A DNA stretch of 64,000 nt, taken from contig NC_086107.1 in assembly GCF_963921235.1 (NCBI RefSeq), forward strand, positions 103,480,001 through 103,544,000, written 5' to 3'. The position numbers and the translations under genes were made by a program. The notes beneath the pieces are model-generated. The model saw only the letters and a list, made by a program, of their open reading frames with translations. It was not told where the DNA came from and searched no databases. Position 1 is the first letter of the stretch, and the number at the start of each line of letters is the position of its first letter. This DNA comes from Mobula hypostoma (taxonomy: Eukaryota). Shown one piece after another: positions 12,650 through 58,263 of the stretch.

Positions 12650-12772
12650 AAACAAGAGAAAATCTTCAGATACTGGAAATCCAAGGGTCTTGGCCCGAAA
12701 CATGGACGTACTCTTTTTCATAGATTCTGCCTGGCTTGCTGAGTTCCTCCAGTATTTTGTGTGTGTTGCTCA
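12650..12772. mobile_element. Penelope-like insertion made of an inverted tail piece plus a forward body
   Basis: 12-bp TSD AAAACATATTGC (12638-12649) / AAAACGTATTGC (12773-12784); remnant AAGGGTCTTGGCCCGAAAC hammerhead half. Confidence 0.75.
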
Positions 12773-15899: not shown

Positions 15900-16050
15900 A
15901 AAGCAACACGCACAGCACGCTAGAGGAACTCAGCAGGTTGGGCAGCATCCATGGAAACGTTTCCACGGATGCTGCCCAACCTGCTGAGTTCCTCCAGCGT
16001 GTTGTGCGTGTTGCTTTGACCCCAACATCTGCAGAGTATTTTGTGTTTAC
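15900..16050. mobile_element. Penelope-like fold-back palindrome (59-bp arms, 3 mismatches, no spacer) plus tail
   Basis: Arms 15900-15958 and 15959-16017; 14-bp TSD GACTCATTTTAAAG at 15890-15903 and 16051-16064. Confidence 0.85.
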
Positions 16051-17880: not shown

Positions 17881-18038
17881 AAACAACAGGAATTCTGCAG
17901 ATGCTGGAAATTCAAGCAACACACATCAAAGTTGCTGGTGAACGCAGCAGGCCAAGCAGCATCTATAGGAAGAGGCCTCTTCCTATAGATGCTGCTTGGC
18001 CTGCTGCGTTCACCAGCAACTTTGATGTGTGTTGCTTG
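17881..18038. mobile_element. Penelope-like perfect 126-bp palindrome plus 32-nt tail
   Basis: 17913-17975 is the exact reverse complement of 17976-18038; TSD TTGTATCCAAATGTA at 17867-17881 and 18036-18050. Confidence 0.9.
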
Positions 18039-18190
18039 TATCCAAATGTACTTGCTTGTGTGATTAGTTGTGAAGCTGGGGGGAGGGGTGTACCCATGAA
18101 AGGTACTAAAATGCAAGACAATTTTTTTTGTGCGGCCATAATTTGTCGAAATAGTAATTTCCACCCCCCCCCCACCCTAAAGCTCAAGCT

Positions 18191-26138: not shown

Positions 26139-26654
26139 AACAAATCTCTTACTAACTCTTCCTTCAGTTAGTCCTGACAAAGGGTCTTGGCCTGAAACGT
26201 CGACTGTACCTCTTCCTAGAGATGCTGCCTGGCCTGCTGCGTTCACCAGCGACTTTGGTGTGTGTTGCTTGAGTTTCCAGCATCTGCAGAATTCCTCTTG
26301 TTTGCATTTTTAAAATTTACTACTGCGAAGCCTCTTTCGGTGATGCCTACACCGAAGAAGTTTAGATCCTCTCTTCGACGGGAGTTCAGTGAAACCATCT
26401 CTCACTGCTCCCCATCTGTAATTTCTTCGGCTCTTCAACTTTTCGACCACATTTTGACTCAGACTCGCTATCACAGCCATATATCTTCTCTTATATTTTG
26501 GATCTCCCCCTCCCCCTCCCACTTTCAAATCTCTTACTAACTCTTCCTTCAGTTAGTCCTGACGAAGGGTCTCGGCCTGAAACGTCGACTGTACCTCTTC
26601 CTAGAGATGCTGCCTGGCCTGCTGCGTTCCCCAGCAACTTTGATGTGTGTTGCT
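26139..26654 (+). mobile_element. Internally deleted Penelope-like element with tandem pseudo-LTRs (385-nt period)
   Basis: Direct repeats 26141-26272 and 26526-26657; ORF start MPTPKKFRSS...RYHSHIS at 26343; 14-bp TSD TGACTTTGTCCGTG at 26125-26138 and 26655-26668. Confidence 0.85.
26554..26591 (+). ncRNA. Minimal type I hammerhead ribozyme, intact core
   Basis: Stem I TAGTC/GACTG, CTGACGA core, stem II AGG..CCT, GAA, palindromic ACGT stem III, predicted cleavage after GTC (26586); paralogue 26169-26206 has G8->A. Confidence 0.85.
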
Positions 26655-26968
26655 TGACTTTGTCCGTGGAATGATTGTTGGTTCTAAACAGGTTGGTTTG
26701 AGTATCTCAGAAACTGCTGATCTCCTGGGACTTTCACACACAGTGGTCCCTAGAGTTTACAGGGAACGTGCGAAAAACTAAAAACAAAATCTGGTAGGTG
26801 GCAGTTCTGTGGGCAAAGACGACTTGTCTTTGAGAGGGGTCAGGGGAGAATGACCAGACTGGTTCAAGCTGACAGTAACTCAAATAAACATATGTTACAA
26901 CAGTGGTGTGCAGAGAATATCTGGGGTACAGCAGCAGAGCCAACGAACATACACTCAGTGTTACTTTA

Positions 26969-49387: not shown

Positions 49388-49975
49388 TTAGAAACAGAAA
49401 CATAGAAAAACATACAGCACAATACAGGCCCTTCAGCCCACAAAGCTGTGCCGAGCATGTCCCTACCTTAGAACTACCTAGGCTTTACCCATAGCCCTCT
49501 ATTTTTCTAAGCTCCATGTAGTCATCCAGGAGTCTCTTAAAAGACCCTATCGTTTCTGCCTCCGCACCGCCGTCGGCAGCCCATTCCACACACTCACCAC
49601 TCTCTGCGTAAAAAAAATCCCTGACATCTCCTCTGTACCTACTTCCAAGCACCTTAAAACTATGCCTTCTCGTGCTAGCCAATTCAGCCCTGGGGAAAAA
49701 CCTCTTTTGATTATCCACATGATCAATGTCTCTCATTATCTTGTACACCTCTATCAAGTCACCTCTCATTCTCCGTTGCTCCAAGGAGAAAAGGCCGAGT
49801 TCACTCAACCTATTCTCATAAGGCATGCTCTCCAATCCAGGCAACATCCTTATAAATTTCCTCTGCACCCTTTTTATGGTTTCCATATCCTTCCTATAGT
49901 GAGGCGAACAGAATTGGGCACAGTATTGCAAGTGGGGTCTGACCAGGGCCCTACATAGCTGCAACATTACCTCTC
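49388..49975 (-). mobile_element. CR1-like LINE 3' fragment
   Basis: ORF 49485..49979 LVRPHLQYCAQF..RVQRKF..RGDLIEVYKIM. Confidence 0.9.
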
Positions 49976-50186
49976 TCATTACCTCTTTGTATTCAGGCAG
50001 TCTGCTAATTTTTGTATACTAGGTTTACCATGAAAGGTTTGGGTGTGAGATGATGTACCAAAATGATGCAAATTGGCCTTAACCAAGAATGGAAAAAAAT
50101 GAGGGAAGGGATAGTTGTCATCTGATAATTGTCATATTAATGCAGAAGTAGTTGAAGTTTAAATATCTGAACAGATAATGACAATA

Positions 50187-51812: not shown

Positions 51813-52784
51813 CAAGAGATAAATAGTTTTGCTCCTGATTGTAGAGCTTAACACATTGAAGACTGGCTCCAGTAATTCTAGTCTACCTAGTAGAATTGTT
51901 GAATTAGAGGTAAAACTGCCCTTCAAGAGTTAAAGACCAGAAGTTTAGAGAGAGGAGGGAATCAGTTTTAAAATATTTCAAGTAATTGAAGTAAGTGTCA
52001 TTGATTGGTTGCAACAGTCCAATCATCTCTCCATGAAAACCAATGTGACCAGAATAATTGAGGAAGTTCAACTGGAGGGTATTGTTAATGTTCTGAACGC
52101 TTACAAGAGACAGCATTGTAATCTTTTAGCTTGCCATATTTTGTGGTATTAATAGTTTGACTTGGTTCTCACAAGACAAGTTTTACAAGAAATTTGGACT
52201 ACTGCTGCTTGGAAGTTTGCTAGCCTGCTAGGATTCCCCATTTCCTCATGAAATTAAATATTAGTGTCTGGACAGCATTTCAAGAAACTAGAACAATTGT
52301 GGGGGCATTAATCAGGTGGATAAACATAACTTTAAAACTTTGAAGATGAGCATTTGCTGACTTAATTAGAAACCCTCGCTAGTCTTTGGGGCATTAATAG
52401 TCCACCTCTGAAGTTGGTCACTGCAGTCACAAGTTTGGAAGTAGGAGGATCCCATTGATGGGGTGGATATTTCTGAGTAGGTAGATTTGATGGAGTGCTA
52501 TTCCACCAAAATTGTTACTCCGTGCACAATCTAACATTAGGGAAGGAACTAAAGACCACTTGTCCTTTGTTTATAATAAAACCTATCTTATTTCCCCCTG
52601 GTAAAAGTTGATGTATTTTTGAGAATCTCTTTTGGACACATTTGTACTCGTTGTAGCTTCTGCAACTGGATTAAGTTGTTTCAAATTTTATTTGGGATGT
52701 ATTTTTCATCACCTTGCAACCCTTTCACTGCTGCTGTGGTGGAGGAATGAGGACTTTCACTGGCTCTGGTATGTATTAACGTTT

Positions 52785-53836
52785 CATAAAAAGGGAGCCT
52801 TTTCTGGTTGGCAGCCAGTGACTAGAGCTGTTCCACAGGGGTCTGTGCCGGCACTGCTTTTTTTTACATTATATGTCAATGACTTTGATGACAGAATTGA
52901 TCGCTTTGTGGCCAGGTTTGTGGACGATAGGAAGATAGGTGGAGGGGCAGTTAGTTTTCAGGAAGTAGAGATGCTACAGAAAGACTTAGACTAATTAGGA
53001 GAAAGGGCAAAGAAGTGGCAGCTGGAATACAGCAAAGTGTATGGTCATGCACTTTGGTAGAAGAAATAAAAGGGTAGACTATTTTCTAAATGGAGAGAAA
53101 ATTCAAAGATATGAGGAATAACAAGGGGACTTGGGAATCTTCGTGCATGATTCCCCAAAGGTTCATTTGCAGGTTGAGTCAGTGGTGAGGAAGACAAATG
53201 CAATGTTAGCATTAATTTCAAGAGGACGAGAATATAAAAGCTCGGATGTAATGTTGAGGCTTTATAAAGCTCTGTTGAGGCCTCACTTGGAGTATTGTGT
53301 GCAGTTTTGGGCCCCTTATCTAAGAAAGGATGTGCTGACATTGGAGAGGGTTCAAAAGAGATTCATGAAAGTGATTCCGAGATTGAAAGGCTTATCGTGT
53401 GAGGAGCAATTGATGCCTCTGGGCCTCTACTGACTAGAGTTCAGAAAAATAAGTGGTAACCTCACTGAAACCAATTGAATGTCGAAAGGCCTCGAAAGAG
53501 TAGATGTGGAGAGGATTTTTTCTATAGTGGAGGAGTCTAAGACCAGAGGACACAGTCGAAGAATACAGAGGCATCCTTTTAGAACGGAGATGAGGAGGAA
53601 TTTCTTTAGCCAAAGAGTGGTGAATCTGTGGAATTCGTTGGCACAGGCAGCTGTGGAAGCCAAGTCACTGGGTATTTTTAAGGCAGAGGTTGATAGATTC
53701 TTGATTAGTCAGGGCTTGAAGTGATATGGGGAGAAGACAGAAAATTGGGGCAGAGAGGGAAAATGGATCAGCCATAATTAAATGGCAGAGCAGACTTGAT
53801 GGGCCAGGTAGCCTAACTTTGCTGCTGTATCTTATG
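52785..53836 (+). pseudogene. CR1-like LINE RT 3' portion, frameshifted
   Basis: VPQGSV, RFVDD, RPHLEYCVQFWAP, FFSQRVVNLWNSL. Confidence 0.9.
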
Positions 53837-54339: not shown

Positions 54340-54990
54340 TTAATCCTCATAGAGGGATTAGAAGTGGAGAGAGTGAGAGGGTGTCAATATCTGTGAGGAC
54401 CTAAACTGGTCTCAACATATCGATGCAGCTACACAGAAGACAAGACAGCAGCTATATTCCTTTAGGAGTTTGAGGGGCTTTGGTTTGTCATCTAAAATAC
54501 TCGAAAACTTTTACAGATGTACCATGGAGAGCATTCTGACTGGCTGCATCACCATCTGGTATGAGGAGGCTACTGCACAGGATTGCCTCCGTAGTATCCA
54601 AGACATCTTCGAGGAGCGGTGCCTCAGAAAGGCAGTGTCCATTATTAAAGACCCCACATCACACAGGCCATACCCTCTTCTCATTGCTACCATCAGGAAG
54701 GAGGTACAGAAGTCTGAAAGCACATACTCAGCGATTCAGGAACAGCTTCTTCCCCTCTGCCATCCGATTTCTGAATGGACTTTGAACCCTTGGGCACTAC
54801 CTCACTTTTCTTTTATTATTTCTGTTTTTGCACTACTATTTTTAATTTAACTATTCATTAATCATACATTCTTGCTGTAATTCATTTATGTATTTATTTT
54901 TCTATATTAATCATGTATTGCATTGTACTGCTGCCGTTGTTAACAAATTTCACGACATAAGCTGGTGATATTGAACCTGATTCTGATTCT
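54340..54990 (+). mobile_element. Rex1/Babar-like LINE 3' derivative
   Basis: FYRCTMESILTGCITIWY, RFRNSFFPSAIRFLN, (TGATTC)n tail. Confidence 0.8.
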
Positions 54991-56810
54991 CATGTTAATT
55001 GGGAGGTGACATTTCTCCTGACAGGCATTGCAAGTAATCTGGATTGTAAAATTGACTTGCCCTGCAGAAACAATTGTACACCACTCCATTAGAGCAAAGT
55101 ATCCCATGAGGTGGTCTGCTGCTGTCCCCTCTGGAGCCTTCCATTGTTTCTCACCAGAGAAAGTTTTCAGACTGTTTTCGTCTGCAGCAACTTTTTGTCC
55201 CTGATGTATGGAGTGAAGTGCAACAGCGTCTATTTTTAGACTTAAACCATTACGTGTCTTGGGCAGAGAGTTTGCACTTTATCAAATGAGACATGCGCTG
55301 AAGTAGGAGAGTGAAGACCTAAAATAGCCAGCTTCAGATCGAAAAGCAGAAACTGTCCAAAAATGGCTGGGACCCAGTAGCCACGGGGCGGTGGGGGGTT
55401 GTTGTTGGTGGTTGTAGTGAGGAGATACAGTTCATGTAGGTCATATTTGGACGCTAGTAATAGGCAGCATCAGAATCGGAAATAATTGTATTTTAACGTA
55501 ACAAGGAATAATAAGTGATGCGCAGTTTTCTATTAAGTAGGTTGTAACTAAGGTTTGAACCTCCGGATTTTCCATTTGTGGACCTCATCTCTGCAGTTAA
55601 CACTGCTGTGTCTATGTCTATAAAATCTTCAAGTACTGTTGCGGGTTGCAAAGGAAGGTCATAACTCGAAGTGGACGTCAGCCATTAATTTAGCTTCCAA
55701 TATGTTATTGGTGAGCTCGCAGTTGGGCTGGGTTTTGAATCGGTTTGCTTTTCAGTTTTACTTTAAAATGATCCTTTGTTGTACTTAAGTATCATATGAT
55801 TAAAGTGCGACTTGGAAGCACACAATCCATCAATAACTAAGTCCCTGAAGTATATAGAATTCCTGGCTTGCATTATACACAGCGTTCCTTGGCTGGCATT
55901 TCGCTCTGGAAGTCATGATGACTGCATAGGTTTGGTATTGGCTTTGTAGGGATTGGTATCCCTGAGAATGAAAGCATGGCATGAAGTTACACACTTCAGC
56001 CTAGTTAAGGAAAATACCTAGCAGGTCAGGTAGTATCTGTGGGGGGGAAGAGAGAAACAAAGTTTTTAACTGACATCCTATCTCGAGGATTGTCCAGTTT
56101 CTGATGCAAGCTGGAGAGGCTGGTTGTCCAAGGTTGTTGAATTTGCTGTTTAGTCTTAAGGGCTGTACATGCCTGGTTGGTGTTCCTCAAGCCCAAGCGT
56201 TGTAATAGTGCTGTTGGTCTAATGGCAGTTTCCTCCAGGTGCTCCGGTTTCTTCCCACATTGCAAAGACACAGTTAAGGTTAGTGAGTTGTGAGCATGCT
56301 TTGTTGGCACCAGACGTGTAGCAACAATTGTAGAGTGCCCAGCACAATCCTTGCTGATTTGATTTGATGCATGTGTTTCGATGTATGGTGATTTACAGTA
56401 ACAGGTGACTGAACTCAAGGCTACTCCTGGACTGACTGTCAGAAATGGTTATTTCTCTCTAGATTGCTAATAGTCAAGGCCCATGAATACAGATAGAGTT
56501 GACAAATCGTGATTGCTACAGGCTTGGGTTTTGGGAAACTTGATGATCACAAAAAGAGGGAAGCAACTTTTTATGTCTAAAATGTCTTTCTCTCTTTGTC
56601 AGCCGCTGAGTCCTCTCAATTTCAATAAGATCTTCTGCCATTCTTCTAAAGTTCTGTGAATACAAGTCTAGTCAATCTAATCTAATGTGCAGGAAGTTGC
56701 AATTTGGTGGAACAGCCCTCCATCAAACTCAAGAGTAAACTCCAGCTACCTACTCAAAAATATCCACCCCACCAATGGGATCCTCCTACTTCCAAACTTG
56801 TTTCTACAGT

Positions 56811-57036
56811 CAACATACATCAAAGTTGCTGGTGAACGCAGCAGGCCAAGCAGCATCTATAGGAAGAGGCGCAGTCGACGTTTCAGGCCGAGACCCTTCG
56901 TCAGGACTAACGAAGGGTCTCGGCCTGAAACGTCGACTGCGCCTCTTCCTATAGATGCTGCTTGGCCTGCTGCGTTCACCAGCAACTTTGATGTATGTTG
57001 CTTGAACTTCCAGCATCTGCAGAATTCCTGTTGTTT
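56811..57036. mobile_element. Penelope-like fold-back insertion: perfect 90-bp arms, 10-nt loop, 36-nt tail
   Basis: 56811-56900 is the exact reverse complement of 56911-57000; TSD TTGTTTCTACAGT at 56798-56810 and 57037-57049. Confidence 0.92.
56872..56909 (-). ncRNA. Minimal type I hammerhead ribozyme, intact core
   Basis: Minus strand TAGTC-CTGACGA-AGGGTCTCGGCCT-GAA-ACGT-C-GACTG, identical to 26554-26591. Confidence 0.85.
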
Positions 57037-58263
57037 TTGTTTCTACAGTGACCGCCTTCAGAGGTGGACTACTAATGCCCCTAAGACTAGTCAGGTTTTC
57101 AACATTCGGGTTTGTAATTAAGTCAGCAAATCTAATCTCTCTCCAACCTACTGTCCTGCTCTCCCAGAAATCAATATGAACCCTTGAACTCCTTTTTTCT
57201 GGCAGATATGTACTTTCTTGAGTAAGGAGCCTATAATTGTACCCAGTTCCGGGTGTCATTTCACCAAGGACCTATATAATTATAGCTAGATGAAGGGTCT
57301 CAACTGGTAACATTGACTGGCCATTTCCCTCTCCAGATTTTGCCTGACCCACTGAATTCTGGTGATTTTTCCTCCTACATTCCAACATCTGCAGTCTTTC
57401 CTATCTCCATCTTAATTGTTTTTAGACTTCCTTGTTCCTGTACGCAAAACCTCTTGAATTAAAGACTAAAGTCCACACAAGATTATTAATCCTTTCTCAT
57501 TGTACATTGTCCAATTTAGTCTGTCTACTTGTTCTGTTTGCTACACTTAAAATGAAGGAGTTCACAGTTGTCAGTACACCACAAGACCTAGGTGACATAA
57601 CTAGTCATTTTGAGCCAGACAGTGTTCACACCACAAGTGCCAGGTAGTTGTCTTCAAAAGTAAGTCTAGTCTTGTACCTTCAATATTCTCAGTGTTACCC
57701 CAAGCTGAGTCCAACATCCCCATCCTGAGGAGTGATGGGAAATGGTAAGAAATAACCATATTTCACCTGAACTGCCTCAACTACAAGAATAGGCGTTGCC
57801 AGTGTTTCCGGTGGTGAGGGTATCATCCTATGACTCCAGCTCTCCCCCCCCCCCCAGACTTTCCCGCAATCTCAGAATGCCTGTTGGAAGTAAGATGGAA
57901 TTGCATGGATGAGTGCAACTCCAACAATGCTGTACAATCTCAGCCCCATTCAGGACATATCAGCCTGTTTTAATTGACATCTCATCTGCCTTCCTAAATA
58001 TTAATCCCCTCCGGACTGTGTAATACTTAGAAAATGCACTGCAGCTTTTTGTCTCGGTGACTGTGACAGGGCCACTCAAATACCTTTGCCTCCTAGACAA
58101 ACATGGAAGCCTCTTCAAAGTTCAAACTAAATTTATTATCAACATACCGATATATGTCATCATATCAGAATCAGGTTTAATAGTATGTCGTGAAATTAGT
58201 TAACTTTACGGCAGCAGTACAATGAAATGCGTGATTAATAACTATAGAGAAAAAAAACTGAAT

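What the first reader, a model, noticed from the sequence alone, without database searches (positions are those of the whole stretch)
56798..57049. Young ribozyme-containing fold-back element: 90-bp perfect hairpin, arms share private variants
Seen: exact 90-bp arms, a 10-nt loop, a 36-nt tail and a 13-bp TSD. The minus strand holds a complete hammerhead, while the + arm begins inside the core (CGA...). Both arms share variants absent from the other copies in the window (CATAC vs CACAC; GCGCC vs GTACC). Established: Penelope-like insertions often have an inverted 5' pseudo-LTR and a short tail. Inference: both arms were copied from one template in a single event, and the hairpin would sequester the ribozyme. 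With the copies at 978, 12650, 15900, 17881 and 39133, this suggests an abundant class of non-coding, MITE-mimicking retro-hairpins.
Basis: partly seen in the sequence, partly recalled or inferred. Interest (0 to 1): 0.72.

Follow-up and report, generated by a model that had tools for sequence, protein, structure and literature searches.

The report
Head-to-head Penelope retrotransposon insertion scar
This 226-base DNA hairpin is a recent insertion of two clipped ends of a very common Penelope-like retrotransposon joined head to head, a published layout; it is not a self-spreading hairpin element, and its sister copies suggest it likely forms when both cut strands of the target DNA each prime a copy of the element's RNA.

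Summary
It is a real, recent insertion: the orthologous site is empty in a related species.

Both arms are identical to the terminal repeat of an intact 3.5-kb Penelope-like element (1042-aa RT + GIY-YIG ORF, Neptune-type zinc finger). The family has over 51,000 tail-bearing copies. In 140 copies chosen without regard to junction, 72 carry an inverted arm; 55 are short hairpins with 52 different junctions. So this is an insertion outcome, not a MITE or a transposing hairpin unit.

Arms agree at 95% of subfamily sites (63% if shuffled), so 'single event' holds, but the named variants are subfamily markers, not private. The tail sits on one arm only, either arm can be longer, and this exact junction (231 copies) occurs in both polarities. 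This favours two separately primed cDNAs over simple fold-back. Why arms stop just past the ribozyme is unresolved.

The layout is published; this scan has already reported it repeatedly on other DNA of this genome.

The parts
56798..56810 (+). 5' copy of the 13-bp target-site duplication
   Evidence: single copy at the empty orthologue and at the paralog
56811..56911 (-). Tail-less inverted arm = element positions -101..-1 (0 = first tail base); inferred cDNA primed at the proximal start site
   Evidence: 0 mismatches to the 3' pLTR of intact copy L233
56873..56908 (-). Minimal type I hammerhead motif (helix I AGTC/GACT, CTGACGA, helix II, GAAA, loop-less ACGT helix III); predicted cut between 56877 and 56876; activity untested
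   Evidence: architecture as in PMC4209133; no Rfam match
56910..56911 (.). 2-nt microhomology (AC) joining the two arms; this junction occurs 231 times in the genome
56910..57000 (+). Sense arm = element positions -91..-1, starts inside the ribozyme core; inferred cDNA primed at the distal start site
   Evidence: 0 mismatches to L233
57001..57036 (+). 36-nt Penelope tail; in the full element it is the beginning of the ORF (first ATG at -6)
   Evidence: 1 mismatch to L233
57037..57049 (+). 3' copy of the 13-bp target-site duplication

Best explanation
The hairpin is a one-off insertion of two 5'-truncated ends of an autonomous Penelope-like retrotransposon joined head to head, likely made when both strands of a staggered target cut each primed reverse transcription. 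Shown: element identity, TSD, empty orthologue, one-sided tail, variable junctions, arm agreement. Inferred: the endonuclease nicks both strands about 13-15 nt apart. One 3' end primes at the distal end of the tail, the other at its proximal end (the two start sites shown in vitro for the anole element). Each cDNA runs uncut through the hammerhead and usually stops 85-126 nt upstream. The two cDNA 3' ends are joined through 0-4 nt of microhomology and repaired. The ribozyme is carried along; any read-through RNA is predicted to pair it away. No host function is implied.
For: Full-length parents with pLTR-ORF-pLTR-tail; open 1043-1044-codon frames in 5 of 20 fetched loci. Inverted arm starts within -10..+7 of the tail boundary in 51 of 61 and carries the tail in 0 of 61, matching two RT start sites that flank the tail and extension of both strands in PMC11167929. 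Tail-less arm longer in 42, tail arm longer in 20, equal in 4 of 66; extreme case 863 vs 9 nt (L047). Among 40 copies chosen only by this exact junction, the tail is on the hammerhead-complete arm in 24 and on the other arm in 16, with 8 haplotypes among the 20 fully typed, concordant loci. Zero-spacer palindromic junctions in 3 of 66 plus window 17975; spacer of 2 nt or less in 9 of 66 (16 not evaluable). TSD of 10 bp or more in 58 of 68 hairpins, 50 of them 13-15 bp. Only 1 of 189 5' ends lies at the predicted cut site.
Against: No biochemistry on this family; the two-site data are from a Poseidon element, a different clade. Junction microhomology is predicted equally by fold-back. A hybrid (two primings, then fold-back of the longer cDNA) fits most loci. 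Zero-spacer centres could come from later repair. Arm agreement cannot tell one RNA from two RNAs of the same active source; 5 of 95 loci disagree at 2 or more diagnostic sites. The sample is the first 90 and first 50 matches on one contig and needs an intact tail. The cause of the stop zone is unexplained.
Confidence: 0.7

Rival explanations
1. Fold-back self-priming: one cDNA (or an antisense template) folds on itself and copies itself, and the endonuclease then resolves the intermediate to leave the tail on one side. This is the published suggestion.
For: Proposed in PMC3846280 (self-priming on an antisense template) and PMC8557442 (tail from EN-mediated resolution). Explains arm identity directly. 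At this locus CTAAC can pair 4 of 5 with GTCAG. Fits the 20 of 66 loci where the tail arm is longer.
Against: A fold-back of the tail-primed cDNA cannot make a tail-less arm longer than its template, yet that is the commoner case (42 of 66; 27 by 10 nt or more). Same junction in both polarities. Zero-spacer junctions. Window 12650-12770 joins a bare tail to a tail-less arm with no inverted overlap.
Confidence: 0.2
2. The hairpin is itself a mobile unit (SINE-like retro-hairpin or MITE) copied from one or a few hairpin masters.
For: 40 best hits were near full-length at 95-100% identity, most of those aligned with the same loop; 231 exact junctions.
Against: Those hits were selected by likeness to the query. 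Junction-blind, 52 different junctions in 55 short hairpins and this one in 1 of 140. Same-junction copies span 8 haplotypes and both polarities. No terminal inverted repeats at the ends; TSDs are long and variable. A few secondary copies cannot be excluded.
Confidence: 0.06
3. Arms look alike because inverted repeats are homogenised after insertion (conversion or hairpin repair), not because of a shared template.
For: 13 non-diagnostic variants are shared by both arms, 5 of them non-CpG.
Against: 182 non-diagnostic differences are arm-specific; only 23 of 95 hairpins have perfect arms. Shared rare variants are expected from rare sources among over 51,000 copies. It does not explain the one-sided tail.
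Confidence: 0.03
4. Read or assembly fold-back artefact.
For: Perfect palindromes are a known artefact type (own knowledge). No contig spans the whole hairpin, and junction-crossing contigs reach only 20-24 bases into it.
Against: 13-bp TSD; flanks not duplicated; empty orthologue and paralog; many independent loci each with its own TSD.
Confidence: 0.01

Closest known systems
Inverted-pLTR insertions of endonuclease-positive Penelope-like elements (Adineta vaga Pen2a, PMC3846280; general scheme in PMC8557442)
   Same: 5'-truncated inverted copy at the 5' end, head-to-head junction, 30-40 bp tail at one end only, one TSD round the unit, tail overlapping the ORF start.
   Different: Here both halves are cut down to about 100 nt, so only pLTR tips remain; very high number; ends pile up just upstream of the hammerhead.
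Poseidon element of Anolis carolinensis, PAc (PMC11167929)
   Same: Hammerhead in the pLTR, tail between two end points, template apparently uncleaved.
   Different: Other clade; here the first ATG lies 6 nt before the tail, not at helix II. In the text I read, the paper does not derive head-to-head insertions from two primings and leaves later steps open.
Minimal hammerheads of metazoan PLEs (PMC4209133)
   Same: Short helix I, loop-less palindromic helix III, extra base before helix II; the paper already notes pairs 100-700 bp apart on opposite strands in Schistosoma.
   Different: Only one arm here has the full core; activity untested.
Non-LTR retrozymes (10.64898/2026.07.22.740005)
   Same: Non-coding, hammerhead-bearing, PLE-derived.
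   Different: Retrozymes are direct tandem repeats with a ribozyme per unit; this is inverted, single and not a propagating unit.
L1 twin priming (recalled, not read here)
   Same: Second target strand primes internally, giving a 5' inversion inside one TSD.
   Different: L1 inversions do not duplicate sequence; here both cDNAs copy the same stretch and the second start site is fixed.
MITEs and foldback DNA transposons (own knowledge)
   Same: Short, non-coding, palindromic, numerous.
   Different: No terminal inverted repeats at the true ends, no fixed short TSD, variable centres, retro-type parent.

Membership tests
EN+ Penelope-like element | Single ORF with RT and C-terminal GIY-YIG endonuclease | tested here: met
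   1042-aa ORF in L233 and L234. On the 602-aa C-terminal part of L173, RVT_1 E 2e-5 and GIY-YIG E 5e-4, both below Pfam's curated cut-offs; 956 homologues.
EN+ Penelope-like element | Partial-tandem pLTRs with a hammerhead motif | tested here: met
   9 of 20 long loci have a 5' direct copy running into the ORF; unit 3513 nt.
EN+ Penelope-like element | Inverted 5'-truncated copy and one-sided 30-40 bp tail | tested here: met
   72 of 140 with inverted arm; tail on it in 0 of 61.
Neptune clade | CX2-5CxxC zinc-finger linker between RT and EN | tested here: met
   CKRNKCYTC before the GIY-YIG; motif definition in PMC8557442. Shared with Nematis.
Neptune clade | RT phylogeny groups with Neptune references | not tested
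   No named reference set was on hand; no tree built.
Minimal hammerhead ribozyme | Conserved core and helices I-II, palindromic helix III | tested here: met
   By inspection, minus strand. No Rfam match; predicted fold of the lone motif is not the hammerhead fold.
Minimal hammerhead ribozyme | Self-cleavage | not testable with these tools
   Needs an assay.
MITE | Terminal inverted repeats, uniform structure, fixed short TSD | tested here: not met
   36-nt one-sided tail; 52 junctions in 55; TSD 9-17 bp.
Non-LTR retrozyme | Direct tandem units each with a complete hammerhead | tested here: not met
   Inverted and single; both arms complete in only 13 of 55.
SINE-like non-autonomous unit | Copies descend from fixed master units | tested here: not met
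   Same-junction copies: 8 haplotypes, both polarities.

The most novel reading that the evidence does not exclude
Penelope-like elements integrate by symmetric double target-primed reverse transcription: two RTs of one dimer start 36 nt apart on the same uncleaved RNA, one on each target strand, the trailing one displacing the first cDNA. No conventional second-strand priming is needed, and the tail, the inverted pLTR and the TSD all follow from one step. The longer tail-less arm (42 vs 20) would be the leading enzyme's mark. The roughly 20,000 hairpins here would be a natural read-out of this step.
Probability: 0.35. Interest if true: 0.62.

Novelty: new member of a known kind. Interest (0 to 1): 0.32.

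Why it matters
The locus itself is an ordinary transposon scar. The family is useful: how Penelope-like elements finish integration and why they form inverted ends with a one-sided tail is still open (PMC11167929, PMC8557442). The copy statistics here separate double priming from the published fold-back idea and give a direct in vitro test. For annotation, such hairpins will be mis-called as MITEs or microRNA precursors (one search gave sub-threshold miRNA matches). Thousands of near-perfect 60-100 bp hairpins could also be a source of double-stranded RNA; that is untested.

Tried and rejected
Hairpin as a transposing unit: the first search suggested it, but the hits were selected by likeness; junction-blind sampling rejected it.
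Ends set by ribozyme cleavage: 1 of 189 ends at -66, 9 in -61..-72; rejected.
Transcript start as cause of the stop zone: Inr-like words lie at -113, -102 and -98 (by eye, consensus recalled). No extra G at -99: 23 of the first 100 of 2,254 listed matches, counted by hand. None of 9 full-length copies begins in the zone; 8 of 8 that reached it passed, against 50 of 113 tail arms (Fisher p 0.002). Not supported, not excluded for a separate short RNA.
Splice acceptor at -100 (pyrimidine tract plus CAG): no recurrent upstream exon in 30 loci; L324 is not a GT-AG junction.
Rfam: no hammerhead match.
Expression: no RNA holder listed; runs are contigs of guessed type, so no statement on transcription.
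Polymorphism within organism A: no joint skipping the element among the rows shown for four other samples; output was cut, so inconclusive.
Literature searches for a double-priming model or a hairpin class in Penelope-like elements listed none by title or abstract; the library lacks most subscription papers, and I read no supplements, including those of PMC11167929, which may bear on this.
Rows left out: 17 of 140 ran off the fetched stretch; 6 of 72 hairpins with junction gaps over 12 nt; L169 had no anchor; the classifier missed at least one hairpin (L067, seen).

Full report
Observation. The coordinates are right: exact 90-bp arms, 10-nt loop, 36-nt tail and a 13-bp direct repeat. The hairpin is far beyond chance (z -28.7). 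The minus strand carries a complete minimal-hammerhead motif and the plus strand starts inside the core. Rfam does not detect it, and the lone motif is not predicted to fold as a hammerhead, which fits the loop-less helix III that PMC4209133 describes as needing a dimer. The repeat is a true TSD. A flank paralog in the window has one target copy, and one contig of organism B runs from 56797 directly to 57037 (runs X9, X10, same sample). The insertion is therefore real and younger than that species split. Contigs of organism A cross the junctions by only 20-24 bases, which is weak on its own.

What it is made of. A search with the element returned 40 near full-length copies at 95-100%, which first looked like a hairpin family. 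An exact 30-mer across the arm/tail boundary occurs 10,926 times with CATAC and 40,360 times with CACAC. Long copies extend upstream into an ORF. Full-length copies are partial tandems, pLTR-ORF-pLTR-tail, 3513 nt per unit; 5 of 20 fetched loci have an open frame of 1043-1044 codons. The protein has RT and GIY-YIG matches below Pfam's cut-offs, a CX4CX2C linker typical of Neptune and Nematis (PMC8557442), and 956 homologues, the best named one at 73% in a bamboo shark. A cartilaginous-fish host is an inference from that. Both arms match the pLTR of intact copy L233 with no mismatch, and the tail with one. The true anatomy is a tail-less arm of 101 nt and a sense arm of 91 nt plus tail, overlapping by AC.

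Unit or outcome. I took the first 90 CATAC and first 50 CACAC matches on contig C1, chosen without regard to what lies upstream. Of 140, 72 have an adjacent inverted arm, 51 are direct only and 17 ran off the stretch. 66 have clean junctions and 55 have both arms of 140 nt or less, with 52 distinct junctions. Scaled by subfamily this is roughly 20,000 short hairpins, from one contig's sample. Longer copies show the same layout up to kilobase arms. This locus's junction occurs 231 times but in 1 of 140 blind loci. In 40 of the 231, the tail is on the hammerhead-complete arm in 24 and on the other in 16, and 8 haplotypes occur among 20 fully typed concordant loci. A master hairpin cannot give that. 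The junction is a hot spot formed again and again.

Shared variants. Arms of a locus agree at 298 of 313 diagnostic sites in the blind set (shuffled mean 63%, maximum 76% in 2000) and 243 of 255 in the same-junction set (65%). Arms then decay separately: 182 arm-specific against 13 shared non-diagnostic variants. So the arms date from one event. This does not prove one RNA molecule, because few sources may be active at a time, and 5 of 95 loci disagree at two or more sites.

Mechanism. PMC11167929 (main text and methods read, parts 1-3 of 4) shows for the anole Poseidon element two internal RT start sites flanking the tail, cleavage and extension of both strands, a predicted dimer, and uncleaved RNA as the main template. 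Here the inverted arm starts at the tail boundary in 51 of 61 and never carries the tail. The tail-less arm is longer in 42 and the tail arm in 20 of 66 (binomial p 0.007). A fold-back of the tail-primed cDNA, as suggested in PMC3846280 (passages read), cannot make an arm longer than its template; a fold-back of the tail-less cDNA cannot supply the tail. Zero-spacer palindromic centres (3 of 66, plus window 17975) need two ends or later repair. Two primings are thus the simplest reading (0.7). A hybrid with fold-back of the longer cDNA remains open, and nothing was tested biochemically.

The stop zone. 63 of 113 tail arms that reach -85 end by -126, a per-base rate 4 to 13 times that elsewhere. 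Junctions at -98 number 2,254 against 243 at a control position near -50, with patterns of unequal stringency. Ends do not fall at the ribozyme cut (-66). A splice acceptor got none either. I leave this unexplained; a stall on leaving the ribozyme fold, or a separate short RNA, are the candidates.

The ribozyme. In a read-through RNA of either strand the motif is predicted to be paired away (plus strand folded). But 25 of 55 short hairpins have no full motif and 13 have two, so nothing suggests selection for a caged ribozyme.

Comparison. The inverted 5'-truncated copy with a one-sided 30-40 bp tail is described as typical in PMC8557442 and PMC3846280 (passages read). Opposite-strand hammerhead pairs are noted in PMC4209133 (part 1 of 4 and passages). 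Retrozymes are direct tandems (10.64898/2026.07.22.740005, part 1 of 5 and passages). Eight searches listed no paper deriving these insertions from double priming; supplements were not read. Earlier notes of this scan reached the same reading on other loci of this genome; I had stated it before opening them, and they are not independent support.

Verdict. Real, recent, ordinary as a locus; a new family of a known kind; moderately useful as evidence on an open step of Penelope integration. Interest 0.32.

Noticed in passing
window 26141-26661 (+): Internally deleted mini-element: pLTR from -127, tail, 222 nt of ORF start, then pLTR -170..+8 without tail; a 14-bp repeat seen by eye on both sides. 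A direct copy ending at the proximal start site.
   Followed up: partly
window 17881-18041: Same-family hairpin with zero-spacer centre, 60-nt arms, CACAC in both arms, 15-bp TSD.
   Followed up: yes
window 15900-16050: Hairpin with tail and 14-bp TSD from a more distant related family (no BLAST match to the L233 unit at E 0.01), so the layout is not limited to one family.
   Followed up: partly
window 12650-12770: Old copy made of an inverted bare tail joined to a tail-less arm, with no inverted overlap; the limiting case for two primings.
   Followed up: partly
window ~52300-52540 (-) vs ~56680-57100 (+): Inverted paralog of the insertion site about 4.3 kb away, about 76% alike; nature of this repeat not determined.
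   Followed up: partly
L170 and L226/L227: Large palindromes of the same element: about 1.9 kb at 98% in L170, and one centred inside the ORF in L226/L227.
   Followed up: no
140 blind loci: 21 of 140 run 4 or more bases past the tail into ORF-start sequence, in short (13 of 91) and long (8 of 49) copies alike, so templates include tandem or circular RNA.
   Followed up: partly
L324: ORF sequence ending near -2309 joined to about -102; internal deletion, not GT-AG.
   Followed up: yes
window 49485-50018, 52623-52994, 54377-54850: Short ORF remnants that look like LINE reverse-transcriptase fragments by eye; not scanned.
   Followed up: no
51 direct-only loci: Only 20 of 51 show a TSD of 10 bp or more at the aligned ends, against 58 of 68 hairpins; unexplained, may hide rearranged 5' ends.
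   Followed up: no
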